From contig JACPGJ010000008.1 of the NCBI GenBank assembly GCA_016182555.1, forward strand, positions 28,272 to 92,271: a stretch of DNA of 64,000 nt, given 5' to 3'. Each line of letters begins with the position of its first letter. Position 1 is the stretch's first letter. The notes under the pieces were generated by a model, which was given only the letters and a program-made list of their open reading frames with translations, made no database searches and was not told the origin of the DNA. Both the position numbers and the translations under genes were made by a program. Shown one piece after another: positions 11,126-49,134 of this stretch. Source of the DNA: Candidatus Kerfeldbacteria bacterium (GTDB lineage Bacteria > Patescibacteriota > Patescibacteriia > UBA9570 > XYC2-FULL-38-9).

Positions 11126-11132
11126 CATTTTT

Positions 11133-17904: not shown

Positions 17905-17941
17905 TAGTCAGCCTGCCGTTACAGGCGTAAATCCATCGTAT

Positions 17942-19399: not shown

Positions 19400-19408
19400 T
19401 ATAAGCGT

Positions 19409-20557: not shown

Positions 20558-20611
20558 CCGCTTAACTTTGGCATTGACCGCGACGTTCAAAAACGATAGA
20601 ATTTTGTTTAT

Positions 20612-21778: not shown

Positions 21779-21839
21779 CGGTGCCACGCGAATCTCATCA
21801 CTTGATTCCTTCTCTATTAAACGCTAGAGTATACCCTAT

Positions 21840-25265: not shown

Positions 25266-25269
25266 TGAT

Positions 25270-26055: not shown

Positions 26056-26058
26056 TCT

Positions 26059-33943: not shown

Positions 33944-34027
33944 GTGCTTTTTTTAGGTGAATACAATAATTGTTCATTGTTTGACAGGTGATTGCTATAT
34001 CGATATACTATATCAGCTATATTTTTT

Positions 34028-35074
34028 ATGTTGAAACGTTTTTTTGGATCACTTTCAAAGGATTTAGGAATCGATATCGGCACATCGAATACTCTTGTAT
34101 ATGCAAAAGATAAAGGGATCGTCATTCAAGAACCATCGGTAGTAGCCATTAACACTCGTAATGATCAAATCATCGCTGTTGGCCATGCCGCAAAAGAGAT
34201 GATTGGGAAAACCCCAGCGCATATTGTTGCATCTCGTCCGTTATTGGATGGTGTCGTTTCTGATTTTGAAGTAGCAGAGAAAATGTTGAAATATTTTATT
34301 GATAAAGTGCATCGTGAAACTTTTTCTGTTATGCCTCGGCCTCGGGTCGTTATTACCATGCCATTAGATATTACGGAAGTGGAGCGCAAAGCCGTTGAAG
34401 ATGCGGTAAAAAATGCTGGTGCACGTGAAGTATTTTTGATTGAACAACCGATGGCTGCAGCGATCGGTTCACGCGTACCGATTCAAGATGCTACGGGGCA
34501 TATGATTGTGGATATTGGTGCAGGGACAACCGGCATTGCAGTTATCTCTCTTGGTGGTATTGTGGCATGGAAATCATTACGCTTAGGTGGCGATGAATTG
34601 AATAAAAATATTATTAATTACATTCGTGATCATTGTAATGTATTGCTTGGCGATAAAACGGCTGAACAAGCAAAAATCAGTATCGGTTCTGCGTATAGCG
34701 ATGATGAAGTGCTGGAAGCCAAGGTGCGTGGACGAGATTTACTATCTGGATTGCCTCGTGAAATTGTAATCAATAGTAATCATATTCGAGAAGCAATGGG
34801 CAGGTCATTGAACACCATTGTGGATAACATTAAAACAGTTATTGAATCCACACCTCCGGAGTTAGTGGCCGATATCTATGAACGCGGTATTTTACTTTCT
34901 GGTGGAACAGCATTGCTGCGTGGGCTCGATAAAAAAATTGCTCATGAAGTACGTATTCCTGTACAAGTGGTCGAAGATCCTTTAACGGCGGTTGTCCGTG
35001 GCACTGGTATTGTGCTCGAAGATATTGATGCTTCGAAAGATCTATTTGTGACCACGCAACCTGATCTTATTTAA
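34028..35074 (+). CDS. mreB: rod shape-determining protein MreB (paralog 2), first gene of the mreBCD-mrdA cluster
   Basis: ATG at 34028 in ORF 33992..35074. LGIDIGTSNTLVY ... MIVDIGAGTTGIAV ... LSGGTALLRGLD. Confidence 0.85.
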   Translation: MLKRFFGSLSKDLGIDIGTSNTLVYAKDKGIVIQEPSVVAINTRNDQIIAVGHAAKEMIGKTPAHIVASRPLLDGVVSDFEVAEKMLKYFIDKVHRETFSVMPRPRVVITMPLDITEVERKAVEDAVKNAGAREVFLIEQPMAAAIGSRVPIQDATGHMIVDIGAGTTGIAVISLGGIVAWKSLRLGGDELNKNIINYIRDHCNVLLGDKTAEQAKISIGSAYSDDEVLEAKVRGRDLLSGLPREIVINSNHIREAMGRSLNTIVDNIKTVIESTPPELVADIYERGILLSGGTALLRGLDKKIAHEVRIPVQVVEDPLTAVVRGTGIVLEDIDASKDLFVTTQPDLI

Positions 35075-36454: not shown

Positions 36455-38332
36455 ATGAGCATGAAATCAAACGATCCATTCTTTATTGATACAGGCGATC
36501 AGCAACAAATGACGTTCAATCGGCCAGCAACACAATTTCGTATTCGTTTTCTCTTATGGATCATTGCCTTGTGCATCAGCATTATTATTGCCCGTGTATT
36601 TTTCCTACAAATTGTCTTTGGAAGCGATTATCGCCGTACCGCTGAAGGAAATCGGATTCAAACACACGTCGTAAAAGCACTCCGCGGAGTTATCTATGAT
36701 GCGAAAGGAGAATTATTGGTAAAGAATATTCCAAATTTTAGTTTAACCATCAATGCACAGCAGGCGCTCAATATTAAAAAAGAAGCACGTGAACAACTAG
36801 CGAACACCCTCGCTCATATTGCGCAATTATCACCAGCCGATATTGTAAATGCATTTGATCAAGCCAAGCGAAGTGGACAAAACGTAGTGCTCAAAGACCA
36901 CATTCCGTACACAGATGCGCTCCAAGATATGATTGCTATTCAACAACTGCCCGCTATTTCCGTTGAACCCTTTTACAGTCGGCAATATTTAGGCGGAGAA
37001 CCATACGCGCATTTGTTGGGATATACAGCAAAAATTTCTGAAACTGAATATGCCAATTTGAAAGATAACGGATATTTATTAACGGACGAAATTGGAAAAA
37101 GTGGAGTAGAAAAATCGTATGAACAAGCATTGCGCGGGAAAGATGGTGAGCAAGATATTGAAGTGGATTTTCGTGGAGCACAGCAATCCGTCGTCGCTGA
37201 TGTGGCGCCACAATCTGGTGATGCGGTTTACTTAAGCATTGAGCCAACACTACAGCGGTTGCTCTATGAGAAAATTAAAACCGCTGTTGATGAACAGCAT
37301 TTGCCTGGTGGTTCTGCGGTTGCCATTGATCCTCGAGATGGTCGAGTCCTCGCACTAGTCTCTTATCCTTCTTACGATAACAATACTTTTGCTCAAGGTA
37401 TTTCGCAAGACGCATACGACGCATTACAGAATGATGAACGCCACCCATTGTTTCACCGAAGCATTGCCGGCCAATATCCTTCGGGTTCTACATTTAAACC
37501 GATAGTCGCCGCGGCAGGCCTAGAAGAAGGAGTGGTAACGCCACAAACTACAATAGTCAGTACTGGAGGTTTACAAATAGATATTTATCGCTTTCCTGAT
37601 TGGAAACCGGGTGGACACGGAGTAACCGATTTGAATAAAGCCATGGCTGAATCCGTCAATACCTATTTTTACCTGCTCGGTGGCGGCGATAATAAAACCA
37701 GCACAGGTCTGGGTGTGGAACGTATTACCGCCTATGCACGGCGTTTTGGTTTAGGTGAGCAGGTCGGCATTGATGTTCCAGGTGAAGCCAGCGGATTCTT
37801 GCCAACGAAACAATGGAAAGAAGAATTTAAAAACGAGCAATGGTACATTGGGGATACCTATCATTATGCTATTGGCCAAGGAGATTTATTAGTCACTCCA
37901 CTACAAGTCGCTACGTATACGGCAATCATCGCGAATGGAGGCACGTTTTACCAACCACACGTGGTAGAAAAATTAGTTTCTGAAGCTGATGGAAGTACGC
38001 GAATCATTGATCCCATTATCAGCGACCCACAAGTCGTGAGTAAACCAACTATTGAAGCTGTACGACTTGCCATGCGTGAAGATGTTCTTTCTCCAACAGG
38101 GAGTGGTCGGACACTGCAATCCTTACCCGTATCAAGTGCAGGAAAAACAGGTACTGCACAAACCTACGGCGATGAACCGACCCATTCTTGGTTTACCGTT
38201 TTTGCTCCTTATGAAACCCCAGAGATAGCGTTAACGGTTTTAGTTGAAAAAGCAGGCCATGGATATGGTGCAGCCGTACCAATTGCTCGTGAAGTGTTGC
38301 AAGAATACTTCGTAAATCGTATACCGCAGTGA
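36455..38332 (+). CDS. mrdA: penicillin-binding protein 2 (class B transpeptidase)
   Basis: N-terminal TM, a dimerisation domain, and transpeptidase motifs STFKP, SVN and KTGTA. Confidence 0.85.
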   Translation: MSMKSNDPFFIDTGDQQQMTFNRPATQFRIRFLLWIIALCISIIIARVFFLQIVFGSDYRRTAEGNRIQTHVVKALRGVIYDAKGELLVKNIPNFSLTINAQQALNIKKEAREQLANTLAHIAQLSPADIVNAFDQAKRSGQNVVLKDHIPYTDALQDMIAIQQLPAISVEPFYSRQYLGGEPYAHLLGYTAKISETEYANLKDNGYLLTDEIGKSGVEKSYEQALRGKDGEQDIEVDFRGAQQSVVADVAPQSGDAVYLSIEPTLQRLLYEKIKTAVDEQHLPGGSAVAIDPRDGRVLALVSYPSYDNNTFAQGISQDAYDALQNDERHPLFHRSIAGQYPSGSTFKPIVAAAGLEEGVVTPQTTIVSTGGLQIDIYRFPDWKPGGHGVTDLNKAMAESVNTYFYLLGGGDNKTSTGLGVERITAYARRFGLGEQVGIDVPGEASGFLPTKQWKEEFKNEQWYIGDTYHYAIGQGDLLVTPLQVATYTAIIANGGTFYQPHVVEKLVSEADGSTRIIDPIISDPQVVSKPTIEAVRLAMREDVLSPTGSGRTLQSLPVSSAGKTGTAQTYGDEPTHSWFTVFAPYETPEIALTVLVEKAGHGYGAAVPIAREVLQEYFVNRIPQ

Positions 38333-38986: not shown

Positions 38987-41083
38987 ATGTCACAAAATCA
39001 CGCTTCACCAATTGACGAATATCAACAACGTATAGCGAAGATGCAAGAACTGCGCGACCTTCAGATTGATCCTTACCCGGCTCAATCTGATCGAACGAGT
39101 ACGGTTGCGCAATTTTTGGAAACATTTGAACTCTTAGCAGCAGAACAGCGTACACAAACATTGACTGGCCGAATTCGATTAAAACGGGAACATGGTAAAT
39201 TAACCTTTGCTCACCTCCAAGACGCAAGTGGAAAAATTCAATTGGTGTTTTCTCAAGCTGAGCTTGGTGAAGATGCCTATGCACAGATGAATCGATTTTT
39301 TGATGTGGCTGATATTATTCAAATTACCGGAACACCTTTCCTGACCAAAAAAGGGGAACAATCAATCTTGGTCACGCAACCACCGCTGATGTTGGCAAAA
39401 GCCTTGCGCCCGTTACCAGAGAAGTGGAAAGGGATTCAAGATGAAGAAACACGTTTCCGCAAACGATACCTGGATATGGTCATGAACCCAGAATTGCGCG
39501 AAATGTTCGTGAAGAAAAGCCTTTTTTGGAATGCCATGCGTACATTTCTTATTGATGAAGGGTTTTTAGAAATTGAAACACCGATATTAGAATCGACACC
39601 TGGTGGCGCTGATGCTGAGCCATTTATTACACATCATAACGCACTGGGTATTGATTTATTTTTGCGCATTTCCGTTGGCGAGTTGTGGCAAAAACGGTTA
39701 ATGGTGGCGGGGTTTGAAAAAACATTCGAAATTGGTCGTGTATTTCGCAATGAGGGTATGAGTCCTGAACATTTACAAGATTATACAGCCATGGAGTTTT
39801 ATTGGGCATATGCGGATTATAACGATAGCATGAAGCTCGTGGAGCGTATGTACAAACATTGTATTATGGCGACATTTGGCACATTGCAATTTTCTATTCG
39901 TGGATTTCATATCAATTTTGATACAGAATGGGGCCACATCGATTATGCACAAACAATTCAGGAGCAATTAGATATTGATATTCTTGCTGCCAGTGATGAT
40001 GAAATTGCTGCGAAAGCAAGAACCATTGGTATGACGGTGGAAGAACATGCTAACCGTGCCCGGTTAGTAGATTCATTATGGAAATATTGTCGTAAATCGA
40101 TTGCTGGGCCGGTTTTTTTGGTGAATCATCCAGTAGATGTGTCACCACTCGCCAAACGAAAAGGCAGCGATGCACGTTTGGTGGAGCGATATCAAATTAT
40201 TATTGCTGGGAGCGAACAAGGAAATGGCTATTCCGAATTAAATGACCCCATGGACCAACGAGCACGTTTTGAAGAGCAAGCAAAACTGCGTGAAGCGGGC
40301 GATACTGAAGCACAAATGCATGATGAAGATTTCGTTGAAGCACTGGAGCATGGGATGCCGCCAACTACCGGCTTTGGTGTGAGTGAACGATTATTTTCCT
40401 TCTTAATGGATAAACCCATTCGTGAATGTGTAATGTTTCCGCTCTTGCGGCCAAAACAACCCGCAATGGTTGATTCGCCTGATACCATAACGTCCGCTAC
40501 GGAATCATCAGATTATTCATTGCAATCATTTGAAGCCGGTATATCAAGAGAACATGCACGAATGTGGCTTTTTCAAGAAGTGAAAGATGAAAATTTACGA
40601 CGTCACATGTTGGCTACGGAAGCGCTGATGAAAGCTCTTGCGCGTCATTTTGGAGCAGCTTCTCCAGAGAGTTGGGGAATAGCCGGGCTCTTGCATGATA
40701 TTGATTGGGAAAAAACATCTATGGATCAACATGGTCTTGTGGGCGCGGAAATGGCAAAAGAAAAAAATATTCATCCACTTATTGTTGACGCCATTCGTGA
40801 ACATAATTATCACCACAAGCTTGAACCAAAAACGCTGTTGTCAAAAGCGATGATGTGTTTAGAGCAGTTGACTGGTCTGATTTCTGCAGCCACATTTGTT
40901 CAGCCAGATAAAAATGTTCATTCAGTCAAGTTAAGTAGCGTGAAGAAAAAATTTAAAGATAAAGGCTTTGCCAAAGGGGTCGACCGAACAATGATTGCAA
41001 AATGTGAAGAACTCCTTGGCCTTTCACTTGATCAATCCATTGAAATCTGTTTAAAAGCCATGCAAGATTCGCCACAAGAATGA
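38987..41083 (+). CDS. lysS: lysine--tRNA ligase (class II) fused to a C-terminal HD-domain (YqeK/HDIG-like)
   Basis: 698 aa. Residues 1 to about 495 are a complete LysRS (OB fold, motifs 1-3, FRNEG, GGADA, PPTTGFGVSERL). Residues about 520-690 carry an HD-domain signature (RRHMLATEALMKALARHFG ... GLLHDIDWEK ... EHNYHH). Confidence 0.8.
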   Translation: MSQNHASPIDEYQQRIAKMQELRDLQIDPYPAQSDRTSTVAQFLETFELLAAEQRTQTLTGRIRLKREHGKLTFAHLQDASGKIQLVFSQAELGEDAYAQMNRFFDVADIIQITGTPFLTKKGEQSILVTQPPLMLAKALRPLPEKWKGIQDEETRFRKRYLDMVMNPELREMFVKKSLFWNAMRTFLIDEGFLEIETPILESTPGGADAEPFITHHNALGIDLFLRISVGELWQKRLMVAGFEKTFEIGRVFRNEGMSPEHLQDYTAMEFYWAYADYNDSMKLVERMYKHCIMATFGTLQFSIRGFHINFDTEWGHIDYAQTIQEQLDIDILAASDDEIAAKARTIGMTVEEHANRARLVDSLWKYCRKSIAGPVFLVNHPVDVSPLAKRKGSDARLVERYQIIIAGSEQGNGYSELNDPMDQRARFEEQAKLREAGDTEAQMHDEDFVEALEHGMPPTTGFGVSERLFSFLMDKPIRECVMFPLLRPKQPAMVDSPDTITSATESSDYSLQSFEAGISREHARMWLFQEVKDENLRRHMLATEALMKALARHFGAASPESWGIAGLLHDIDWEKTSMDQHGLVGAEMAKEKNIHPLIVDAIREHNYHHKLEPKTLLSKAMMCLEQLTGLISAATFVQPDKNVHSVKLSSVKKKFKDKGFAKGVDRTMIAKCEELLGLSLDQSIEICLKAMQDSPQE

Positions 41084-41108: not shown

Positions 41109-42380
41109 ATGCTAGACATTCAATACATTCGACAATACCCTGAACTTGTTCAACAAAACGCCGATAAACGTGGTGTGAAAGTGAATATGCAATTGCTTCT
41201 TCACCGTGATGAAGCATTGCGCAATCGAACCCAAGAGCTGGATACGTTACGCGCTGATCGCAATAGCATTGCTGCGCAAATGCAACAAACGGGAGGCAAA
41301 AATGTTGAGCTGATTGAACAAGGGAAATTAGTAAAAGTAAAAATTGCTGAAATTGAACAAGAAGTAGAACGGCTACGTGAAGAATTCCAAGCGCTCATGA
41401 TGCAGGTGCCCAATATGACGCATCCAGATTCACCGATTGGAAAAAATGATCTTGAAAATGTCGAAATTCGGCGGTTTCAAGAGCCCACTGAGTTTTCTTT
41501 TCCTCCAAAAGATCACGTGGAGCTCGGGAAGTCATTGGATCTTATCGATTTTGAACGTGGTGCCGATGTGGCAGGAAAGGGGTTTTACTATTTGAAAAAT
41601 GAAGCGGTATTACTCGAATTGGCACTGGTGAATTACGCTATGGATACCTGTATGGCTGAAGGATTTATGCCGATGATGACGCCAGACCTCGCGTATTCGC
41701 ACGTACTCGCGGGAACAGGCTTTGCTCCGCGGGGCCCGGAAACACAAATTTATAATCTTGAAAATACCAATTTATCTCTTATTGCGACCGCAGAAATTGG
41801 AGTTGCTGGCTATTATCAGAATCATCTTTTTGCAGCAGGTGAACTAGACCAACCGCTCAAAATTGTCGCTTTATCTCATTGTTTTCGCACAGAAGCAGGT
41901 TCGTATGGTCGAGAATCACGTGGTTTGTATCGCGTGCACCAATTTACGAAAGTGGAAATGTTTATCTATAGCAAGCCAGAAGATTCAGAAGCTATGCATC
42001 AGCATCTTTTGGAAGTAGAGGAAAAAATTATGCAACACTTAGAAATACCATATCGTGTCGTCGATATTTGTACCGGAGATTTAGGTGGAGCAGCTTATCG
42101 CAAATATGATGTAGAAGCCTGGATGCCATTTAAGCAAGATTGGGGAGAGGTCACTTCGACATCAAATTGTACGGATTATCAAGCTCGTCGATTGAATATT
42201 AAATATGTAAATGCGGAAGGAAAGAAAGAATATGTGCATACACTCAATGGCACCGCTATTGCGTTGTCTCGAACACCCATTGCTGTTTTAGAAAATTTTC
42301 AACAAGCGGATGGTTCGATTAAAATACCTCAAGTATTGCACCCATATATGTTTGGGAAAACCATGATCAATCGCCGTTAA
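41109..42380 (+). CDS. serS: serine--tRNA ligase
   Basis: 423 aa with an N-terminal coiled-coil arm and a class II core (FRTEAGSYGRESRGLYRVHQF). Confidence 0.9.
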   Translation: MLDIQYIRQYPELVQQNADKRGVKVNMQLLLHRDEALRNRTQELDTLRADRNSIAAQMQQTGGKNVELIEQGKLVKVKIAEIEQEVERLREEFQALMMQVPNMTHPDSPIGKNDLENVEIRRFQEPTEFSFPPKDHVELGKSLDLIDFERGADVAGKGFYYLKNEAVLLELALVNYAMDTCMAEGFMPMMTPDLAYSHVLAGTGFAPRGPETQIYNLENTNLSLIATAEIGVAGYYQNHLFAAGELDQPLKIVALSHCFRTEAGSYGRESRGLYRVHQFTKVEMFIYSKPEDSEAMHQHLLEVEEKIMQHLEIPYRVVDICTGDLGGAAYRKYDVEAWMPFKQDWGEVTSTSNCTDYQARRLNIKYVNAEGKKEYVHTLNGTAIALSRTPIAVLENFQQADGSIKIPQVLHPYMFGKTMINRR

Positions 42381-43105
42381 CGACGTGCTTCCCAAGGAGT
42401 TTCATTTGAGCGTTTGAACACGCATTGAGAAAGCCAGTTAGTAAACCACGACCAGAGTAAACAGCCCCACCCATCGCGATGGATGCGCCTTCCGGACATC
42501 CGCATCGGATATTTCATCCAGACGCGAGTTTTTCCTAAACGAGTAAGACGGTGAAAAATATCCCAATCTTCTGAGGTGTAGAGTGCTGGGTTATAGCCAT
42601 TGATCTCTTCAAAAGAAGCGCGACGAATAATTTGACAATCTCCACCAGCACCACCAAGCCCGATCATGTTGACGAAGTACATATTCGCATTCACCACGCC
42701 AAACCAAAAACGGTCAATAACCCGCTCTTCTTCTGGATAGAGCCGTGAAGGGAGAGCCACAGCAATTAATTTTTTTTGCTGAGCAAATTGTTGCTTTACC
42801 AAAGAGAGTACCGCATTCAGGTGCGGAATCAATACGTCAGCATCAGTAAAGAAAAGAACATCCCCAGTAGCGACGCGAGCGCCACGGTTGCGACACTCGC
42901 CAATACTGGAACGCTCTGATTCTGTAATAGAGAGCACTGTATCTGCCAACGGCGCAGCTATTTTCGTGGTCATATCACTACTACCATTATCAGAAATAAT
43001 AATTTCACAATCTGTGCCACGAAACGGTTGCCACTGTTCGAGAGTTTTCCTTATACGTTTTTCTTCATTATATGTGGGAATGATGACAGATATTTTCATA
43101 CGCAT
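42377..43105 (-). CDS. glycosyltransferase family 2 (last gene of the minus-strand operon)
   Basis: Start chosen at the ATG encoding MRMKISVIIPTYNEE (43105), 10 nt after the upstream stop. DNGSSD ... FTDADV (DxD). Confidence 0.7.
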   Translation of the reverse strand: MRMKISVIIPTYNEEKRIRKTLEQWQPFRGTDCEIIISDNGSSDMTTKIAAPLADTVLSITESERSSIGECRNRGARVATGDVLFFTDADVLIPHLNAVLSLVKQQFAQQKKLIAVALPSRLYPEEERVIDRFWFGVVNANMYFVNMIGLGGAGGDCQIIRRASFEEINGYNPALYTSEDWDIFHRLTRLGKTRVWMKYPMRMSGRRIHRDGWGCLLWSWFTNWLSQCVFKRSNETPWEARR

Positions 43106-43115
43106 GATATGGAGA

Positions 43116-44165
43116 TTACCAAAAACCTCTTTTAATACGGCGCGCAGTTTCAATAATGCGAGTAAGATAATATTTCGACCGAATAGGATAATCCTGACAA
43201 GGAAGTAAATCAATACGCTCTCCACCAAAACCGGTTTTGAATGTCGTCACGCCGGCAAACGGATGTGGCCGTCGGGTGATACGCGAACGCATTTTATTCT
43301 CTGGTACAATACCCCAAAAATTATAGGCAAGACACCCACGTCGCTTTGCTTCACGTATTGCTTCCCATTGTAATAGATACGACGCTGGAATTTTTTGAAA
43401 TTCACTTAATGAGGCCCCATGATGATACGAAGCCATATCGCCGTAAAACATGATCATGGCTGCGGCAATCACTTTCCCTTCATATTCTGCTAAAAACATG
43501 GCGACTTGATCAGCTTTGACAAATGCACGAAATTGAGCACGAAAAAAATCGTCTTTATAGGGAACAAAACCGTGCCGTTCAACAGTGCTTTTGTGAATGC
43601 GAATGAAATGTTCAACATCGTCTGGATTTTTACTCATCCGAATCGTAACGCCATCACGAGTAGCACGACGAATAAGATTACGCATCGTTTTTCGCATCCC
43701 AACAAGTAGCGTATCTTCTGCTGGTGTAATATCCAACCACCATACATGTTCAGCAAGCATGTGCAATGGAGCACGCCGCCAACCTGCACGATAATACAAC
43801 GCACGATTATCTTTTGCGTCAACAATAAAGGGAGACGAGCGGATGAAGTCGATATTCAGCTCTTTTGCTTTTTTCACGACATACTGTGTAAGCTCGGGTA
43901 CATACTGCCATTTATGCATCTGAAATACTGGACCATAGGGAAGATAAAAAAAATGTCCACGCTTTGCGCGCACAATGACCACAAAAGCCACGCCAATGAG
44001 TATGTTATCTTCTTTCACTCCAATGAGGAGTGATGATTCGCCAACCGTTTCGTGGACCTCGCGCATATACCACGATTGTAAAAATGGCGGCCGAGGAAAA
44101 CCCAATAAAAAATTTTCCCATTCTTCCTGGTTGATCTTTTCAGTGATGACAAGATTAGCGTTCAT
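43116..44165 (-). CDS. FemAB-family aminoacyl/peptidyl transferase (FemX-like)
   Basis: 349 aa with an N-terminal LPYGPV, two GNAT-like halves, and a C-terminal FKTGFGG typical of FemABX. It overlaps the upstream gene by 11 nt. Confidence 0.6.
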   Translation of the reverse strand: MNANLVITEKINQEEWENFLLGFPRPPFLQSWYMREVHETVGESSLLIGVKEDNILIGVAFVVIVRAKRGHFFYLPYGPVFQMHKWQYVPELTQYVVKKAKELNIDFIRSSPFIVDAKDNRALYYRAGWRRAPLHMLAEHVWWLDITPAEDTLLVGMRKTMRNLIRRATRDGVTIRMSKNPDDVEHFIRIHKSTVERHGFVPYKDDFFRAQFRAFVKADQVAMFLAEYEGKVIAAAMIMFYGDMASYHHGASLSEFQKIPASYLLQWEAIREAKRRGCLAYNFWGIVPENKMRSRITRRPHPFAGVTTFKTGFGGERIDLLPCQDYPIRSKYYLTRIIETARRIKRGFW

Positions 44166-45420
44166 GGAGGATCTGAATGATATGTTGGCTTATATTCTCC
44201 GCTTGCTGTTTGCTCGTTTGAATGGAGGTGGGTAAATTCACTACACGCCGAGCTGTTTCTTCTGCGTTGGGGCAACTTCCGTTTGTATACTGTGCTGCGG
44301 TCAGCGAGGCATCTTTTGGATCAATAACGTGCCGATACCAGTCTCCGAGGAGTATGCCTTCTTTTCGCATTTTTTTCAAGAGTATTTCCGCTTGTGCAGG
44401 TGAAACTTGTATTGGAAAGCGTAAAAATATGGGTTCGTCGCTTTCTCGTATAGTGGGAAGTTGAATTTCTTTCTGTTTTGCAAATGCGGCCTGGTACATG
44501 TCGGCGAGTTTTTTCCGGTGCGTATTTTTTATCTCTAAATCACTATATTGTTGCAAAGCCCATTCCGCAATAACATTGGGTAAACGAAAACCATGCAATT
44601 GTTGTCCCTGTTTTTCTTCTGTTTCTAATACTAATGGCCACAAATGCAATGAGCGTGTTCCTTCGATCAATAATTTTCCGAGTGAAAAAAAATAGTAAAA
44701 CTGTTTTGCCACGGCAAAAATTAATGGGTGGAGTAATCGCTTTTTTACCCATAATCGAGAGGGGAGAGATAACCCATCAACATAAGCGCGAACGCCTTGA
44801 GCTATATCTGTATTATGAGTGATCGCCAACCCACCAGAAACAGAAGAGATGACCTTATCGCGGCCAAAAGAAAACATTGCGGCATCACCAAATGTGCCAA
44901 CGAGTTTTCCATTCACGGCAGCGCCCAAGGCATGGGCACAATCTTCAATCAAGAGAACACCATGTAAACGGCAGAGTGCCTGTATGCGCTCAATATCTGC
45001 TGGAATACCAAAGGTGTGTTGCACAATCACTGCACGAATATGTTGTTCATGACGGAGGATGGTTTCTAGGGAATCGACATCAATATTATACGAATCATCA
45101 ATATCTACATATCGTGGTTTGCCGCCAGCCGCAATAATGGTATTCGGTACAGAGATACAGGTAAAGGATTGTAATATCACCTTATCGTCGGGACGCAATT
45201 TGAGAGCGTCCATAAGCGCATATAATGCGGTACGACCAGCATCAAAAGCAATGGCGTGCGGCATGCCATAATCTTCTTTAAAACGTTTTTCCAACGCAAA
45301 TACGGCTGTTCCGCGCATCCATCGAAGCCAATGCCACGGATAAAAAATGCGACTCAACACAAATTGAATATCACGCTTAGTCACATTCGGAGAGATGTTT
45401 GATGAAATAGGTGTGCGCAT
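44155..45420 (-). CDS. DegT/DnrJ/EryC1/StrS-family PLP-dependent sugar aminotransferase
   Basis: AIAFDAGRTALYAL ... DCAHALGA ... SFGRDKVISSVSGG (the PLP lysine region). The start is uncertain among 45498, 45471 and 45420; 45420 avoids overlap with the MurF-like gene. Confidence 0.75.
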   Translation of the reverse strand: MRTPISSNISPNVTKRDIQFVLSRIFYPWHWLRWMRGTAVFALEKRFKEDYGMPHAIAFDAGRTALYALMDALKLRPDDKVILQSFTCISVPNTIIAAGGKPRYVDIDDSYNIDVDSLETILRHEQHIRAVIVQHTFGIPADIERIQALCRLHGVLLIEDCAHALGAAVNGKLVGTFGDAAMFSFGRDKVISSVSGGLAITHNTDIAQGVRAYVDGLSLPSRLWVKKRLLHPLIFAVAKQFYYFFSLGKLLIEGTRSLHLWPLVLETEEKQGQQLHGFRLPNVIAEWALQQYSDLEIKNTHRKKLADMYQAAFAKQKEIQLPTIRESDEPIFLRFPIQVSPAQAEILLKKMRKEGILLGDWYRHVIDPKDASLTAAQYTNGSCPNAEETARRVVNLPTSIQTSKQQAENISQHIIQILHER

Positions 45421-45436
45421 ATTTTTTTCAGGCGAG

Positions 45437-47026
45437 TTATCTCGTAGCCATATACTCTCGTAGCAACCCATGAATTCTTCCTTCAATGAGTACCGCATCC
45501 CTATCTGTTATTGTAGAGAGGTGGTGTTTTATCATGCGAGATGGGCGATCGTCAATAATGATCTGTTCTCGAGCCATCCCTCCTGCAAGCGCTCCACGCA
45601 ATAAGGTTTGGGCAAAATCTTTTTTGGTAATATAGAGTGTATCCGCGACAGCACCAATCGCACGACCAATTTCTTCATGTTTTGCATCAGACTGCTGTCC
45701 CAATTCTTGCATGCCAGGAGTCAGCACTATTTTTTTCTTACCCGTATAGACTTGTAAATAGCGAAGGGCCGCTATAAATCCATCTGGGTTAGCATTATAT
45801 CCATCGTCAATGACCGTCGCGTGATTTTTACCAAGCGATACATCCATTGTTCCTGGTATCGTTTGTAATGTATTCATGCCATGAACAATCTGTTGCATGG
45901 TGAGACCAAGATGATCAGCAACGGTAACAGCAGCGAGGATAGCAGGAATGACCTGCGCACCAAACAATCGAACGGTGACCGGCGTAGAAACGTTTCCAAT
46001 ATGCAGAACAAATTGTATATGCCGTGGAAATACATGAATATCAGTGGCATAAACGTGCGCAATATCTTGTACCGAAAAAAATTTTTTCTTCGCATGAGTG
46101 CGATCAGCAACCGCCAAGCAATGGGGATTGTCACGGTTAATCACTGCAAGGCCCGAGCTTGGTAGTGCTTCCAATAATTCAGCTTTCGTATTTTTTGTTG
46201 TTTCAATATCACGAAAAAATGCAAGATGCTGTTCGTTAATAGCGGTGAGTATACCAATAATCGGCGAAACTAATTCGCAAGTTGAACGAATGTCGCCAGG
46301 AATATACGCTCCCATTTCGGCAATAAACACCTCGTGTTGTGGTTTCAGTTGGTGAAGTATGGTTTGTGCCACACCGATATCAACATTCACATTTTTTGAG
46401 GTGGCGAGAACAGAGAATTTTTCTGAGAGAATCGTTTTTAAAAATTCTTTTGTTGAAGATTTTCCATAACTACCAGTAATGCCAATGACAATAGGATTGA
46501 CGTGTCGTATTTTTTCTTTAGCGCGTCGAATCACTCGCTGTTTTTCCCGGTGCGTCATCGGTTCAAAACTGATAATAAACGCACTCACGAGAATTGGAAC
46601 GAGCATCACCGCAACCACCAATACGAAAAACATCGTATTATTGGTATAAAAAATAAACCCAGGGATACTATTCAAAACACATAGTATACTCATCATCAGT
46701 AGTATTTTTGCGGTAAATTTTGGTCGCCAACGTTTTCGCAACCAATCAACAATTTCTCCAATAGCGAGAAGAGAGAAATACAAAACGGCATGTGAAGGAA
46801 AAATGAATGCGATAATGAGTATAAGAAACTCTACAAAAAATATCCAAGAGAAAATCGTTCGCTTGCCTGAACGTGTGTGCAAAAAATCACGCATGCGATC
46901 ACGTCGATACTCTTTTAATTGCCAAATGTAAAACCAAAAAAGCATTTTGGTACCAATAATCGCACACCACAAAATAAAAATCATCAGTATAAATAATTGA
47001 TGAGAATACGTATTGAATATATCCAT
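45437..47026 (-). CDS. MurF-like Mur-ligase with an N-terminal ~170-aa polytopic membrane domain
   Basis: 529 aa with about four N-terminal TM helices. The soluble part has Mur-ligase P-loop IGITGSYGKSSTKE and a MurF-type DDGYNANP motif. Confidence 0.75.
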   Translation of the reverse strand: MDIFNTYSHQLFILMIFILWCAIIGTKMLFWFYIWQLKEYRRDRMRDFLHTRSGKRTIFSWIFFVEFLILIIAFIFPSHAVLYFSLLAIGEIVDWLRKRWRPKFTAKILLMMSILCVLNSIPGFIFYTNNTMFFVLVVAVMLVPILVSAFIISFEPMTHREKQRVIRRAKEKIRHVNPIVIGITGSYGKSSTKEFLKTILSEKFSVLATSKNVNVDIGVAQTILHQLKPQHEVFIAEMGAYIPGDIRSTCELVSPIIGILTAINEQHLAFFRDIETTKNTKAELLEALPSSGLAVINRDNPHCLAVADRTHAKKKFFSVQDIAHVYATDIHVFPRHIQFVLHIGNVSTPVTVRLFGAQVIPAILAAVTVADHLGLTMQQIVHGMNTLQTIPGTMDVSLGKNHATVIDDGYNANPDGFIAALRYLQVYTGKKKIVLTPGMQELGQQSDAKHEEIGRAIGAVADTLYITKKDFAQTLLRGALAGGMAREQIIIDDRPSRMIKHHLSTITDRDAVLIEGRIHGLLREYMATR

Positions 47027-47028
47027 AT

Positions 47029-47820
47029 TTATTCAGCTAAAAATGCAACAATATCTTCTGCGATCTGCTGTGCATGAGTCGTATGAATGCCATGCCGTCC
47101 ATCTCCAAAAATACGAACATCAGCATGGGGAATTTTATTCTTCATAAATTCACTCTGTTCTACCGGTACATAAGAATCATGCTGGCCCCAAAAAATTTTT
47201 ACCGGTTGAGTAATGGTTTCAAACACCGGAGATAAATCTTCAGCAATGACGTTCTGAAATGTTTGCTTCATCACACCTGATGTATGTAAATAATCATGAC
47301 CACCAATTAACATGTACCCCCATTTTTTGACTGTAGGGAATAACCGGTTAAGTAGGGGCAGTTCAAAAATGACTTTCATTGCAGTCGCTAAGCGAGTAAT
47401 GACCCCAATACGTTTTTCATGATTACGAATGCCAGCCGGAGCAATATAGACTACGCGACGAACACGATTCGGATGTTCATACAATAATTTTGTCGTGACA
47501 CGCCCGCCAAAAGAGTGGCTCACAAGAATAACCTGTTTAATGTGAAGAACGTCTAAATATTTTACGACGCATTCAGCATACGCATGAACATTCCAGGGTT
47601 GGGTAGGAGCAGGGGAGCGACCAAAGCCTGGAAAATCTATCGCAATAAGACGCCGTGCAATCTGCCCATTAATGAGTTCCTGCCAGAGCGCCTGGAATGA
47701 CATCGCCGATCCACCCCACCCATGAAGAAATAAGATAGGAATAGCCTCGTTGTTTGCTTCAAATTCAATGTAAGAGACGATTTGATGGTTCAATGTTAGC
47801 TGTTTTCTTGTGCCAATCAT
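47029..47820 (-). CDS. alpha/beta-fold hydrolase (first gene of the minus-strand operon)
   Basis: HGWGGS oxyanion region and a nucleophile elbow VSHSFGG. ATG at 47820 is preferred over the GTG at 47844. The stop lies 2 nt before the MurF-like start. Confidence 0.7.
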   Translation of the reverse strand: MIGTRKQLTLNHQIVSYIEFEANNEAIPILFLHGWGGSAMSFQALWQELINGQIARRLIAIDFPGFGRSPAPTQPWNVHAYAECVVKYLDVLHIKQVILVSHSFGGRVTTKLLYEHPNRVRRVVYIAPAGIRNHEKRIGVITRLATAMKVIFELPLLNRLFPTVKKWGYMLIGGHDYLHTSGVMKQTFQNVIAEDLSPVFETITQPVKIFWGQHDSYVPVEQSEFMKNKIPHADVRIFGDGRHGIHTTHAQQIAEDIVAFLAE

Positions 47821-47943
47821 ATGTGTATTATAGCGAATATTCACCTATAGCACCAATTCTTCGAGAGCTTCGTTTGGCTTCGCAAAGCCGTGCTCTCTCC
47901 AGAATTGCTGCTCCGGCAAATATACAGTAAAATACTATATGAT

Positions 47944-49134
47944 ATGTTCAAATTCATCCTTCAACAAAGAAACAGGAAACGGATACGGGCGATGCAAAAC
48001 CAACGGCCTACCAATTTTCGAAGTACAAAAATTCCTTCGCCACAAAAAACAGCATCCAGTGAAATATGGCGCGTCATCTGTTCATGGATAAAAAAAGATG
48101 GTTGGGCAATCATTGGTATTATCGGGATGATGGGAGTAACGAGCTGGTACTTTGGGTTCCACCAACAACATTTTCATATTCATGATGTGCATATTGAAGG
48201 AAATAAATTTATTCATACAGAAGATATTCAACATGTTGTTGATCAATTTACTTCCAGCAAAACTATCATTTTTTTGAAACGAAACACGTTTTGGACATTC
48301 AAAGCTGAGGCTCTTGAAAAACAATTGTATCAATCTTTGAGTAGCACCTATGCATTAGAACAGGTAGAAGTGCAAAAAAAATTTCCAAATAGTGTAGCGA
48401 TAACGGTTACCGAACGGATACCCAGTGTCACCTGGGTCACCACGTCTTCTGGAACAGAGCATTGGTATACGGTAGACCGAGAGGGCATTGTTACGCAAGT
48501 GTTGGGTTCGCCAGACCAGGCGGATACATCATTTCCGATTATCCGTGATACTAATCGTGATCAATTTGAAGCTGGTTGGCATATCATTTCTTCTCAATAT
48601 ATTGATTTTGTTTTACATCTGCATGAACAAATGGAAAACACAACTGGGACACATGTGGATTCTTATGTATTGCCGCTGATGCAATGCCAAGAACAACAAT
48701 ATGTGACCGAGGAAATTTTTAAACAAGAATTACAGAATTCTGCTTCTGATGAATTTCGTGACAAGAAACGTGAAATTCAAGAAAAATTTCAACGCGGAGA
48801 ATTAACAGTTGATGAAAGTTTAGAAGAATTAGAAAAAATTAAAGAAGAAGAGTTTCAACAAAATCATGAAGGAGAAGATACTAAAGGGGTGCAAGGGCAT
48901 GTTGAATGGCAAACGGTGTATGTTCCTGTAACGTGTGATTTTGTGAACGTCGCTACTGAAGTACATGTCATGACTAGCGGAGACCATGCTGGTTACCAAG
49001 TATATATGGATACCAGCCTCGATCTTTCTACCCAATTGCAAAATCTAGAATCCGTTTTACAAGAAAAAATTAGCGATCCAACAGCTATTCAATACATTGA
49101 TGTGCGTTTTGCTGATCGTGTCTATTATCAATAA
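47944..49134 (+). CDS. ftsQ: FtsQ/DivIB-like cell-division protein with an acidic insertion
   Basis: TM helix WAIIGIIGMMGVTSWYFGF, a POTRA-like IHDVHIEGNKFIHTEDI, and KFPNSVAITVTERIPSVTW. The ORF track begins with GTG at 47890; ATG 47944 is used here (start uncertain). Confidence 0.5.
   Translation: MFKFILQQRNRKRIRAMQNQRPTNFRSTKIPSPQKTASSEIWRVICSWIKKDGWAIIGIIGMMGVTSWYFGFHQQHFHIHDVHIEGNKFIHTEDIQHVVDQFTSSKTIIFLKRNTFWTFKAEALEKQLYQSLSSTYALEQVEVQKKFPNSVAITVTERIPSVTWVTTSSGTEHWYTVDREGIVTQVLGSPDQADTSFPIIRDTNRDQFEAGWHIISSQYIDFVLHLHEQMENTTGTHVDSYVLPLMQCQEQQYVTEEIFKQELQNSASDEFRDKKREIQEKFQRGELTVDESLEELEKIKEEEFQQNHEGEDTKGVQGHVEWQTVYVPVTCDFVNVATEVHVMTSGDHAGYQVYMDTSLDLSTQLQNLESVLQEKISDPTAIQYIDVRFADRVYYQ

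What the first reader, a model, noticed from the sequence alone, without database searches (positions are those of the whole stretch)
42377..47844. Five-gene minus-strand operon pairing a membrane-anchored MurF-like ligase with DegT aminotransferase, FemAB transferase, GT2 and an alpha/beta hydrolase
Five genes on the minus strand abut or overlap each other with at most 16 nt between them (and up to 11 nt of overlap): hydrolase 47820-47029, MurF-like 47026-45437, DegT 45420-44155, FemAB 44165-43116, GT2 43105-42377. This is consistent with a single transcript. MurF, FemX and their kin normally act on soluble UDP-MurNAc-peptide or on lipid II. Here the Mur ligase carries its own ~170-aa polytopic membrane domain and is co-transcribed with an amino-sugar-forming aminotransferase and a glycosyltransferase. 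That combination suggests a dedicated pathway building a peptide-decorated, amino-sugar-containing lipid-linked envelope precursor, for example a non-canonical stem peptide or branch. It does not look like housekeeping murF, because housekeeping murF normally sits in a mur/dcw cluster and no such cluster is present around this gene. I do not recall this gene combination being described.
Basis: partly seen in the sequence, partly recalled or inferred. Interest (0 to 1): 0.72.

Follow-up and report, generated by a model that had tools for sequence, protein, structure and literature searches.

The report
Membrane-embedded MurF cell-wall operon
This is a conserved cell-wall precursor operon of a Patescibacteria (CPR) bacterium, and its MurF ligase carries a five-helix membrane domain where the usual nucleotide-binding domain should be; it is most likely the organism's ordinary MurF rather than a separate pathway, but I found no description of this membrane-bound form in the papers searched.

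Summary
**Observation: confirmed.** Five minus-strand genes sit 2, 16, -11 and 10 nt apart. They encode an alpha/beta hydrolase, a MurF-type ligase with an N-terminal membrane domain, a DegT aminotransferase, a FemX-like transferase and a GT2.

**Interpretation (a dedicated pathway, not housekeeping murF): mostly not supported.**
- The window comes from a Candidatus Kerfeldbacteria MAG.
- In 85 related loci the hydrolase lies just upstream of the membrane MurF in 76 of 79 testable cases.
- In Patescibacteria the block is MreC-PBP2-GreA-LysS-SerS-hydrolase-MurF-DegT-FemAB-FtsQ.
- In some Patescibacteria it sits inside a full cell-wall cluster: MurC-MurB-MurA-GlmU-GlmS ... MurF-DegT-FemAB-DagK-MraY-FtsW-MurG-FtsQAZ.
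- In Poribacteria, hydrolase-MurF-Ddl occupies the canonical murF slot between murE and mraY.
- No other MurF-type gene appears in any of these clusters.
- GT2 is specific to this genome.

**What remains new.** Membrane MurFs form one clade (97/100 bootstraps) across several phyla. Their N-terminal domain has invariant motifs on the predicted cytoplasmic loops (WQLKEYRxxR and PxxT). I found no description of them in the literature searched.

**Not settled.**
- Whether a second, soluble MurF exists elsewhere in this genome could not be tested.
- The roles of the hydrolase and of DegT are unknown.

The parts
47029..47820 (-). Cytoplasmic alpha/beta-fold serine hydrolase (263 aa from ATG 47820; an alternative GTG lies at 47844). 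It is the conserved upstream partner of the membrane MurF.
   Evidence: - Pfam Abhydrolase_1 at 3.7e-27.
- No hydrophobic segment.
- The oxyanion-hole motif H41-G42-W43 is conserved at 92-100% in 69 orthologues from several phyla. The catalytic triad S111, D223 and H251 is 100% conserved.
- It lies within 3 kb upstream on the same strand in 47 of 49 Patescibacteria-type loci and 29 of 30 other loci.
45437..47026 (-). Membrane-embedded MurF-type ligase, 529 aa.
   Evidence: - NCBIfam TIGR01143 (murF) scores 243 bits. It matches profile positions 64-403 of 418 only; the cut-off is 288.6.
- The best solved sequence relative is E. coli MurF 1GG4 at 5.8e-36, aligning residues 176-461 to chain residues 98-383.
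- The ten best Foldseek PDB matches are all MurF.
- It is 100% identical to a protein of a Candidatus Kerfeldbacteria MAG, on a 598,550-bp contig.
46499..47026 (-). N-terminal five-helix membrane domain plus linker helix (residues 1-176). It replaces Mur ligase domain 1.
   Evidence: - Hydropathy and AlphaFold2 models support the helices.
- A scan of 1.84 billion representative proteins found the domain only at the N-terminus of roughly 510-570 aa proteins, or of shorter proteins that may be fragments.
- It is homologous across phyla.
46895..46930 (-). Invariant motif Y33-x-W35-Q36-L-K38-E39-Y40-x-x-x-R44 on a predicted cytoplasmic loop.
   Evidence: - These residues are invariant in alignments A1 and A2.
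- A relaxed form, Q-[LQ]-x-x-Y-[KR]-x-x-R, is seen in Poribacteria, Clostridia, Bacteroidales, Bacilli and Chloroflexota.
44155..45420 (-). DegT/DnrJ/EryC1-family PLP enzyme, 421 aa.
   Evidence: - Pfam DegT_DnrJ_EryC1 at 9.3e-60.
- The PLP lysine K189 is conserved in all 41 orthologues.
- Solved relatives (perosamine synthetase 3bn1 at 3.3e-29, ArnB and others) align only to residues 31-219.
- It is present downstream in 39 of 48 Patescibacteria-type loci and in 0 of 30 others.
43116..44165 (-). FemX-like aminoacyl-tRNA-dependent transferase, 349 aa.
   Evidence: - Pfam FemAB at 2.5e-35.
- The best solved relative is Weissella FemX, the UDP-MurNAc-pentapeptide:L-Ala transferase, at 2e-11.
- It is present downstream in 42 of 46 Patescibacteria-type loci.
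42377..43105 (-). Small soluble GT2 glycosyltransferase, 242 aa. It is a genome-specific tail gene, not part of the conserved module.
   Evidence: - Pfam Glycos_transf_2 at 6.7e-22. NCBIfam TIGR04283 scores 108 bits against a cut-off of 182.
- In other Kerfeldbacteria the slot after FemAB is empty (L001, L086) or holds a methyltransferase (L087).
- Among the other related loci there is only one weak, non-adjacent match.
47890..49134 (+). FtsQ-type POTRA division protein, divergent neighbour (context).
   Evidence: - Pfam POTRA_1 at 3.7e-09.
- FtsQ follows FemAB directly in several relatives, including L005, L007 and L039.
41109..42380 (+). Seryl-tRNA synthetase, convergent neighbour (context).
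   Evidence: - It is called SerRS by homology to genes that carry Seryl_tRNA_N and tRNA-synt_2b in relatives.
- SerRS lies within 3 kb upstream of the module in 37 of 46 Patescibacteria-type loci.
36455..38332 (+). Class B PBP (PBP2) of the MreB-MreC-PBP2 elongasome block (context).
   Evidence: - Pfam Transpeptidase at 2.2e-64 and PBP_dimer at 8.6e-38.
- MreB and MreC lie upstream.
- The same order is seen in most Patescibacteria loci.

Best explanation
**What it is.** The operon is the Patescibacteria version of the late cytoplasmic steps of peptidoglycan precursor synthesis.

**MurF.** The 529-aa protein is the lineage's MurF.
- Its central and C-terminal domains use ATP to add the D-Ala-D-Ala dipeptide to the MurNAc-tripeptide precursor. 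This is inferred from homology.
- The usual N-terminal domain is replaced by a five-helix membrane domain. Its conserved, positively charged cytoplasmic loops lie next to the catalytic domains.
- This fixes the reaction at the membrane, next to MraY. The placement is inferred.

**Other genes.**
- The FemX-like enzyme then adds an amino acid from an aminoacyl-tRNA to the stem peptide, to start a cross-bridge. This is inferred. Linkage to SerRS hints at serine.
- The alpha/beta hydrolase is an obligate, catalytically intact partner of this MurF form in every phylum that has it. Its substrate is unknown.
- DegT is a Patescibacteria-specific addition of unknown substrate.
- GT2 is a genome-specific passenger.
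For: **Catalytic identity**
- The murF model is by far the best NCBIfam match: 243 bits, against 88 bits or less for the murE and murD single-enzyme models. The only other strong matches are murF models themselves or fusions that contain MurF.
- The MurF hallmark D-D-x-Y-N-A-N-P is conserved.
- The ten best structural matches are all MurF.

**Synteny in Patescibacteria**
- The hydrolase-MurF-DegT-FemAB core is conserved in Kerfeldbacteria, Gracilibacteria, Peribacteria, Magasanikbacteria, Staskawiczbacteria and other groups.
- L047 reads MurC-MurB-MurA-GlmU-GlmS ... hydrolase-MurF-DegT-FemAB-DagK-MraY-FtsW-MurG-FtsQ-FtsA-FtsZ.
- L038 reads FtsI-MurE-MurC-MurA-NTP transferase-x-GlmS-hydrolase-MurF-DegT-FemAB.
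- L007 reads MraY-x-MurD-FtsW-MurG-x-LysS-SerS-hydrolase-MurF-DegT-FemAB-FtsQ.
- The gene after MurE is MurC, scoring above the curated cut-off, so no canonical MurF sits in that slot (L088 and L089).

**Outside Patescibacteria**
- Seven Poribacteria loci read FtsI-MurE-hydrolase-MurF-Ddl-MraY, and six of them continue through MurD to MurC.
- 29 of 31 non-Patescibacteria loci have an ordinary D-Ala-D-Ala ligase right after this MurF.

**Membrane domain**
- It is conserved and found only in this architecture.

**Partner enzymes**
- Hydrolase catalytic triad: 100% conserved.
- DegT PLP lysine: 100% conserved.
- FemAB: closest solved relative is Weissella FemX.
Against: - I could not scan the rest of this genome, or any complete Patescibacteria genome, for a second soluble MurF or for Ddl.
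- Membrane MurFs form a clade separate from the canonical MurFs of E. coli, Bacillus, Limosilactobacillus and Monoglobus (97/100). The form also occurs in Bacilli, Clostridia and Bacteroidales, where it is probably a second copy. It can therefore be a paralogue.
- In Aquibacillus the module is followed by a D-Ala-D-Ala dipeptidase-like gene, which suggests a specialised role there.
- No Ddl lies within 10 kb in any Patescibacteria locus.
- The TIGR01143 score is below its cut-off.
- Nothing explains why a sugar-type aminotransferase and a serine hydrolase belong with MurF.
- Co-transcription is inferred from spacing alone.
Confidence: 0.7

Rival explanations
1. **Lipid-linked reading.** The enzyme has the same MurF chemistry, but the substrate is the undecaprenyl-pyrophosphate-linked MurNAc-tripeptide (lipid I or lipid II lacking D-Ala-D-Ala) rather than UDP-MurNAc-tripeptide. 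The membrane domain would bind the polyprenyl-pyrophosphate where domain 1 normally binds UDP.
For: - Domain 1 is replaced exactly at the boundary with the central domain (residue ~176 aligns to E. coli MurF residue 98).
- In MurE and MurF complexes the substrate pyrophosphate sits at that boundary. MurT, which acts on lipid II, lacks domain 1 for this reason (PMC6113224, read).
- The invariant basic and polar motifs K38, R44, P102 and T105 lie on predicted cytoplasmic loops.
- The MurE that I looked up in Patescibacteria also lacks domain 1.
Against: - There is no direct evidence.
- MraY would have to transfer a tripeptide precursor.
- Poribacteria pair this MurF with a full-length MurE.
- The FemX-like protein most resembles the Weissella enzyme, which uses the UDP-linked pentapeptide.
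Confidence: 0.2
2. **Salvage reading.** The hydrolase trims scavenged or recycled stem peptides (for example tetrapeptide to tripeptide, analogous to the LD-carboxypeptidase LdcA), and the membrane MurF restores D-Ala-D-Ala. The pair would act mainly in recycling of own or host-derived muropeptides.
For: - The strict hydrolase-MurF pairing, with an intact Ser-Asp-His triad, is seen in 76 of 79 loci.
- The hydrolase matches Pfam Hydrolase_4, the serine aminopeptidase S33 family, at 2.6e-14.
- Patescibacteria are thought to depend on external building blocks (PMC6851277).
- The module coexists with what are probably canonical MurFs in Firmicutes and Bacteroidales.
Against: - The module sits in the murF slot of the dcw cluster in Poribacteria and next to MraY in L047, with no other MurF nearby.
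- The hydrolase's closest solved relatives are arylesterases and C-C hydrolases, not peptidases.
Confidence: 0.1
3. **The first reader's reading.** This is a dedicated pathway, separate from housekeeping peptidoglycan synthesis. It would build a peptide-decorated, amino-sugar-containing lipid-linked envelope glycoconjugate using DegT, GT2, FemAB and a specialised Mur ligase.
For: - DegT-family enzymes normally make amino sugars.
- A GT2 closes the operon.
- The ligase belongs to a clade distinct from canonical MurF.
- FemAB relatives occur in exopolysaccharide loci; NCBIfam TIGR03019 scores 48.6 bits, below its cut-off.
Against: - GT2 is unique to this genome.
- The module is embedded in Mur, Mra and Fts clusters, and no other MurF is seen there.
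- No dehydratase or oxidoreductase that could supply a keto-sugar to DegT lies in the module.
- Some Patescibacteria loci lack DegT altogether.
- Outside Patescibacteria the partner gene is a plain Ddl.
Confidence: 0.08
4. **Ddl-replacement reading.** In Patescibacteria, DegT and FemAB stand in for Ddl. They would supply or install the C-terminal residues of the stem peptide by a PLP-dependent and tRNA-dependent route instead of an ATP-grasp D-Ala-D-Ala ligase.
For: - DegT-FemAB occupies the position right after MurF that Ddl holds in 29 of 31 non-Patescibacteria loci.
- No Ddl lies within 10 kb in any Patescibacteria locus.
- SerRS and LysRS are tightly linked to the module.
Against: - The evidence is purely positional.
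- Fem transferases acylate amino groups with L-amino acids or glycine, and there is no precedent for them making the MurF dipeptide substrate.
- Several Patescibacteria loci lack DegT.
- The presence or absence of Ddl elsewhere in these genomes was not tested.
Confidence: 0.04

Closest known systems
Canonical MurF (UDP-MurNAc-tripeptide:D-Ala-D-Ala ligase; E. coli 1GG4, P. aeruginosa 4CVK, A. baumannii 4QF5, T. maritima 3ZL8)
   Same: - It has the same central ATP-binding and C-terminal domains, the P-loop GITGSYGKS and the DDxYNANP motif.
- MurF is the best sequence, profile and structure match.
- In relatives the gene sits beside murE, ddl and mraY.
   Different: - Domain 1 (about 95 residues, which binds the UDP part of the substrate) is absent. 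A roughly 175-residue five-helix membrane domain with its own invariant motifs takes its place.
- It forms a separate clade (97/100).
- It is almost always preceded by an alpha/beta hydrolase.
- It scores below the TIGR01143 cut-off.
MurT of the MurT/GatD lipid II amidotransferase
   Same: It is a Mur-ligase homologue that lacks domain 1 and works at the membrane on a lipid-linked precursor. Its closest structural relatives are MurF enzymes (PMC6113224).
   Different: - MurT is soluble, pairs with the glutaminase GatD and amidates D-Glu.
- The present protein matches the MurT models only at E of about 1e-4 to 1e-3.
- It keeps the MurF motifs, is itself an integral membrane protein, and pairs with a serine hydrolase.
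PgsB/CapB poly-gamma-glutamate synthase
   Same: It is a membrane-anchored member of the Mur ligase superfamily. This statement rests on my own knowledge.
   Different: - It matches only weakly (TIGR04012 at 17 bits against a cut-off of 222.7).
- It has a different product.
- It lacks the homologous membrane domain.
Weissella viridescens FemX (UDP-MurNAc-pentapeptide:L-alanine transferase), compared with the FemAB gene
   Same: - It has the same family and a similar size (349 aa against 335 aa).
- It is the best solved relative (2e-11) and the best NCBIfam match.
- It acts directly on the product of MurF.
   Different: - The NCBIfam score is only 54 bits against a cut-off of 500.
- The donor amino acid and the acceptor are unknown.
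Sugar aminotransferases of the DegT family (PseC, LegC, perosamine synthetase, ArnB), compared with the DegT gene
   Same: - The PLP-binding half is shared and the catalytic lysine is conserved.
- It scores 160-167 bits against PseC and LegC.
   Different: - All scores are far below the curated cut-offs.
- Residues 220-421 do not align to solved members, although they are strongly conserved within Patescibacteria.
- No partner dehydratase is present.
- It is linked to MurF, which is not a known context for this family.

Membership tests
MurF (Mur ligase adding D-Ala-D-Ala) | Central Mur ligase domain with an ATP-binding P-loop | tested here: met
   - Pfam Mur_ligase_M at 1.2e-31, covering residues 183-370.
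- The residues G182, I183, T184, G185, S186, G188 and K189 are invariant in 20 homologues.
MurF (Mur ligase adding D-Ala-D-Ala) | C-terminal Mur ligase domain with the MurF-type DDxYNANP motif | tested here: met
   - Pfam Mur_ligase_C at 1.7e-13.
- D407, Y410, N413 and P414 are conserved, and this stretch aligns to the corresponding DDSYNAN stretch of E. coli MurF.
MurF (Mur ligase adding D-Ala-D-Ala) | N-terminal domain 1 that binds the UDP-MurNAc part of the substrate | tested here: not met
   - There is no PF01225 match.
- The TIGR01143 match starts at profile position 64.
- The alignment to E. coli MurF starts at chain residue 98.
- Residues 1-176 are modelled as membrane helices.
MurF (Mur ligase adding D-Ala-D-Ala) | Score at or above the curated cut-off of NCBIfam TIGR01143 | tested here: not met
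   It scores 243.4 bits against a cut-off of 288.6. Only profile positions 64-403 of 418 are matched, so the shortfall plausibly reflects the missing N-terminal part.
MurF (Mur ligase adding D-Ala-D-Ala) | MurF structures are the closest structural relatives | tested here: met
   Foldseek PDB ranks 1-10 are all MurF (best 4qf5 at E 3.7e-27, 375 aligned columns). MurE and MurC follow.
MurF (Mur ligase adding D-Ala-D-Ala) | Genomic placement with murE, ddl, mraY and other dcw genes | tested here: met
   - This is not met in the window itself, where only FtsQ and MreBC-PBP2 lie nearby.
- It is met in relatives: seven Poribacteria loci, plus L047, L038 and L007.
MurF (Mur ligase adding D-Ala-D-Ala) | Sole MurF of the genome (housekeeping role) | not testable with these tools
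   - Only 64 kb of the genome is visible. It holds no other Mur ligase, Ddl or MraY.
- Whole-genome scans of the source MAG were not possible.
MurF (Mur ligase adding D-Ala-D-Ala) | Catalyses ATP-dependent addition of D-Ala-D-Ala to a MurNAc-tripeptide | not testable with these tools
   This needs a biochemical assay or genetic complementation.
FemAB family (aminoacyl-tRNA-dependent peptidoglycan branch transferases) | Pfam FemAB above the gathering score, with solved Fem proteins as the nearest structures | tested here: met
   - PF02388 scores 122.6 bits against a cut-off of 24.
- PDB matches: FemX (Weissella) 2e-11, S. aureus FemX 2.9e-09, FemA 4.7e-07.
FemAB family (aminoacyl-tRNA-dependent peptidoglycan branch transferases) | Equivalence to a characterised member (FemX, UDP-MurNAc-pentapeptide-lysine alanyltransferase) | tested here: not met
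   NF047883 scores 54.2 bits against a cut-off of 500. The protein belongs to the family, but its specificity is unknown.
DegT/DnrJ/EryC1/StrS aminotransferases | Family profile match and a conserved PLP-binding lysine | tested here: met
   - PF01041 scores 203 bits against a cut-off of 19.8.
- K189 in the motif S-F-x-R-D-K is 100% conserved in 41 orthologues.
DegT/DnrJ/EryC1/StrS aminotransferases | Assignment to a characterised nucleotide-sugar substrate class (PseC, LegC, ArnB, WecE and others) | tested here: not met
   - All equivalog models score far below their cut-offs. The best is PseC, at 167 bits against 423.5.
- Solved relatives align only to residues 31-219.
MurT (lipid II isoglutaminyl synthase subunit) | Profile match to MurT and a GatD partner gene | tested here: not met
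   - NF052464 scores 21.3 bits and NF045635 scores 18.4 bits, each against a cut-off of 800.
- No glutamine amidotransferase was seen beside the MurF in the window or in the annotated loci.

The most novel reading that the evidence does not exclude
In Patescibacteria, and wherever this MurF form is the only one, the last stem-peptide step is not done on the soluble UDP-MurNAc precursor. It is done on the undecaprenyl-pyrophosphate-linked precursor in the membrane plane. The five-helix domain would hold the lipid carrier where domain 1 normally holds UDP, and the paired serine hydrolase would act on the same membrane-bound intermediate. The domain-1-less MurE found in the Patescibacteria loci I looked up would point the same way. 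If so, the textbook order (MurF, then MraY) would be inverted in a large part of bacterial diversity.
Probability: 0.15. Interest if true: 0.9.

Novelty: new variant of a known kind. Interest (0 to 1): 0.6.

Why it matters
MurF is taught as a soluble cytoplasmic enzyme and is a drug target. The data here show three things.
- A monophyletic MurF form is an integral membrane protein.
- It appears to be the cell-wall-cluster MurF of a whole superphylum (Patescibacteria) and of Poribacteria.
- It always travels with a conserved serine hydrolase of unknown role.

That raises three concrete, testable questions.
- Where and on which carrier is D-Ala-D-Ala added in these organisms?
- What does the hydrolase do?
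- What do the Patescibacteria-specific DegT and FemX-like enzymes add to the wall? The wall chemistry of these episymbionts was not described in any paper I found.

The result also corrects a likely misreading: this gene cluster should not be annotated as a separate glycoconjugate pathway.

Tried and rejected
- **Second MurF or Ddl in this genome.** This could not be tested. A tblastn search of the 64-kb window with MurE, MurC, MurD, MurA, GlmS, MraY and Ddl queries hit only the MurF gene itself.
- **AlphaFold-database fold search.** The library was not available.
- **Plasmid search with the Aquibacillus homologue.** It found only the catalytic domains of canonical MurFs, at about 32% identity. 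This gives no sign of a mobile resistance module.
- **A vancomycin-resistance-like reading of the non-Patescibacteria module.** I rejected this as a general explanation. The linked ligases pass the D-Ala-D-Ala ligase cut-offs and fail all the Van ligase cut-offs. Only Aquibacillus has a dipeptidase next door.
- **Promoter and terminator scans.** They showed nothing above the shuffled expectation.
- **Literature.** Eight searches found no description of a membrane MurF or of this gene combination. The library is partial, so this is not proof of absence.
- **Longest-ORF starts for DegT (45498) and GT2 (43228).** I rejected both. They overlap the upstream genes by 62 and 113 nt and exceed the lengths of the homologues.

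Full report
**1. Observation**

The five minus-strand ORFs are present. With start codons that fit the homologue lengths, the junctions are a 2 nt gap (hydrolase to MurF), a 16 nt gap (MurF to DegT), an 11 nt overlap (DegT to FemAB) and a 10 nt gap (FemAB to GT2).

The Pfam calls are all well above threshold:
- Abhydrolase_1
- Mur_ligase_M plus Mur_ligase_C
- DegT_DnrJ_EryC1
- FemAB
- Glycos_transf_2

The Mur ligase has no N-terminal Mur ligase domain. The murF model TIGR01143 matches only profile positions 64-403 of 418, scoring 243 bits against a cut-off of 288.6. E. coli MurF aligns from its residue 98 onward.

Residues 1-176 are membrane helices.
- There are five hydropathy peaks.
- AlphaFold2 models helices at 2-37, 61-98, 106-128 and 133-153, followed by a linker helix, with pLDDT 89.8.
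- Modelling the domain alone gives the same result.
- Lys and Arg cluster in loops 38-60 and 96-107 and after residue 153. This gives an N-out, C-in topology and puts the conserved loops on the cytoplasmic face. That placement is an inference from the sequence.

Promoter and terminator scans add nothing, so co-transcription rests on spacing alone.

**2. Source and context**

The MurF protein is identical to one from a Candidatus Kerfeldbacteria MAG, on a 598,550-bp contig.

The window holds the following genes around the operon:
- Upstream: MreB, another MreB, MreC and PBP2, then GreA, a long LysRS and SerRS.
- Downstream, divergently: an FtsQ-type POTRA gene and a NUDIX gene.

So the statement that no cell-wall or division genes are nearby is not accurate. 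It is true, however, that murC, murD, murE, mraY, murG and ddl are absent from the 64 kb.

**3. The module in other genomes**

The 120 best homologues are nearly all 490-570 aa and cover 86-99% of the query, membrane domain included. Six shorter or insert-bearing entries cover less.

Gene neighbourhoods came from two sources: seven homologues with precomputed Pfam calls and 80 loci from species-representative genomes. I compared them by BLAST of the window proteins against all locus ORFs.

| Feature | Patescibacteria-type loci | Other loci |
|---|---|---|
| Hydrolase within 3 kb upstream, same strand | 47 of 49 | 29 of 30 |
| DegT downstream | 39 of 48 | 0 of 30 |
| FemAB downstream | 42 of 46 | 0 of 30 |
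| SerRS within 3 kb upstream | 37 of 46 | none found |
| Ddl following MurF | none within 10 kb | 29 of 31 |

In the gene calls, the hydrolase stop and the MurF start often lie within 1-4 nt of each other or overlap by 4 nt.

The usual Patescibacteria order is MreC-(MreD)-PBP2-GreA-LysS-SerS-hydrolase-MurF-DegT-FemAB-FtsQ.

GT2 is not conserved. In three other Kerfeldbacteria loci the slot after FemAB is empty (two loci) or holds a methyltransferase (one locus).

**4. Is it the housekeeping MurF?**

Four lines of evidence say yes.
- *L047.* This locus is labelled Gammaproteobacteria, but its gene content is of the Patescibacteria type. It reads MurC-MurB-MurA-GlmU-GlmS ... hydrolase-MurF-DegT-FemAB-DagK-MraY-FtsW-MurG-FtsQ-FtsA-FtsZ.
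- *L038.* This locus reads FtsI-MurE-MurC-MurA-nucleotidyltransferase-x-GlmS-hydrolase-MurF-DegT-FemAB.
- *The slot after MurE.* In L038 and in two Levybacteria contigs, the gene after MurE is MurC, scoring above the curated cut-off. The canonical murF slot therefore holds no three-domain MurF.
- *Poribacteria.* Seven loci read FtsI-MurE-hydrolase-MurF-Ddl-MraY, and six of them continue through MurD to MurC. The membrane MurF sits exactly where murF belongs.

Across these clusters every other Mur step is seen, and the only MurF-type gene is the membrane form.

Against this, I could not scan any complete genome. The form is also a distinct clade: a neighbour-joining tree of the catalytic domains groups all membrane MurFs apart from the canonical MurFs of E. 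coli, Bacillus thuringiensis, Limosilactobacillus oris and Monoglobus in 97 of 100 bootstraps. It also occurs in Bacilli, Clostridia and Bacteroidales, where a canonical MurF very probably exists too (my own knowledge). I put the housekeeping reading for Patescibacteria at about 0.7-0.75.

**5. The membrane domain**

- It is homologous across all these phyla.
- Within Patescibacteria, the invariant residues are Y33, W35, Q36, K38, E39, Y40, R44, G54, P102 and T105.
- A scan of 1.84 billion representative proteins found it only at the N-terminus of this architecture, or in shorter proteins that may be fragments.
- All 80 homologues in which my P-loop pattern matched show hydrophobic peaks before the P-loop, in most cases three to six.

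The domain replaces domain 1 exactly at the boundary with the central domain. In MurE and MurF complexes the substrate's pyrophosphate lies at that boundary. MurT, which acts on lipid II, lacks domain 1 for that reason (PMC6113224).

This geometry makes a lipid-linked substrate conceivable, and I keep that as the most novel reading. Nothing here shows it. A simpler reading is that the domain tethers MurF beside MraY.

**6. The partners**

- *Hydrolase.* It has no hydrophobic segment, so I take it to be cytoplasmic. S111, D223 and H251 are 100% conserved, and the oxyanion-hole motif HGW is conserved at 92-100%, in 69 orthologues. Its nearest solved relatives are arylesterases and C-C bond hydrolases, which does not identify a substrate.
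- *FemAB protein.* It is a genuine Fem-family member of the short Weissella FemX type. That enzyme acts on the MurF product. Some lineages carry a second copy between the hydrolase and MurF. The tight linkage to SerRS and LysRS is suggestive for the donor amino acid, but it may simply be inherited synteny.
- *DegT.* It keeps the PLP lysine and has a Patescibacteria-specific, well-conserved C-terminal half that does not align to solved members. Its substrate is unknown. It is missing from several Patescibacteria loci.
- *Ddl outside Patescibacteria.* The gene after MurF is an ordinary D-Ala-D-Ala ligase. It scores above the Ddl cut-offs and below all the Van ligase cut-offs. Only Aquibacillus adds a D-Ala-D-Ala dipeptidase-like gene.

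**7. Comparison with what is known**

In sequence, structure and genomic placement the protein is a MurF. It fails two formal MurF criteria: presence of domain 1 and the curated score cut-off. The score shortfall plausibly reflects the missing N-terminal part of the profile. It is not MurT and not PgsB.

Eight literature searches and two targeted readings found no description of a membrane MurF, of the hydrolase pairing, or of the MurF-DegT-FemAB combination. Databases simply name it MurF.

**8. Verdict**

- What is really there is a conserved four-gene cell-wall precursor module built around a membrane-embedded MurF variant. I found no description of this variant in the literature searched. 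It is widespread and always paired with a serine hydrolase.
- I rate it a new variant of a known kind, of moderate to fairly high interest.

Noticed in passing
L038:2114-3340; also L088:10001-11239 and L089:10001-11170: The Patescibacteria MurE I looked up also lacks Mur ligase domain 1. It is 389-412 aa, matches the murE profile only from position 71, and starts right after FtsI. Most of the 120 best homologues are about 390-415 aa and all carry only the middle and C-terminal Pfam domains.
   Followed up: partly
window 38987-41083 (+): The lysyl-tRNA synthetase is 698 aa, about 200 aa longer than usual, with a C-terminal HD-like extension (HDIDWEK ... HNYHH). A Kerfeldbacteria homologue carries a weak Pfam HD hit, and in L024 and L033 the extension is a separate ORF.
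   Followed up: partly
L057:9213-13652 (Aquibacillus kalidii): In this cultured Bacillaceae genome the hydrolase-membrane MurF-Ddl trio is followed by a Peptidase_M15 D-Ala-D-Ala dipeptidase-like gene. The arrangement resembles a van-type cluster, but the ligase scores as an ordinary D-Ala-D-Ala ligase.
   Followed up: partly
L009, L013, L014, L043 (just upstream of the MurF gene): Some Patescibacteria carry a second, more divergent FemAB-family gene directly upstream of the membrane MurF, in addition to the one after DegT. In L009, L013 and L043 it lies between the hydrolase and MurF. In L014 the contig ends before any hydrolase would be seen.
   Followed up: no
L030, L034, L047, L085: Records labelled 'uncultured Gammaproteobacteria' (L030, L034, L047) and 'Chloroflexota' (L085) carry the Patescibacteria-type hydrolase-MurF-DegT-FemAB block, with SerRS directly upstream in L030 and L034. 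The taxon labels of these MAGs look doubtful.
   Followed up: no
window 42377-42380: SerRS (+) and GT2 (-) converge with overlapping stop codons. This leaves no intergenic space for a terminator on either strand.
   Followed up: no
window 28099-29106 and 33992-35074 (+): There are two full-length MreB paralogues in one small-genome bacterium. One sits beside a glycosyltransferase cluster and the other heads MreC-PBP2.
   Followed up: no
window 17828-28074 (+): A polysaccharide cluster lies upstream of the elongasome genes. It comprises a Wzx-like flippase, GT4 and GT2 transferases, a Wzy_C protein and a 671-aa DUF4012 protein.
   Followed up: no
window 11034-13790 (+), 56766-58253 (+): Two large ORFs (918 aa and 495 aa) have no Pfam match. 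The 495-aa gene is syntenic in other Kerfeldbacteria (L001, L086), where it also has no Pfam hit.
   Followed up: no
window 3244-4980 (+) and 4961-6502 (-): A GGDEF diguanylate cyclase and a HAMP histidine kinase converge with overlapping 3' ends. I thought this signalling gene content worth recording for a Patescibacteria genome.
   Followed up: no
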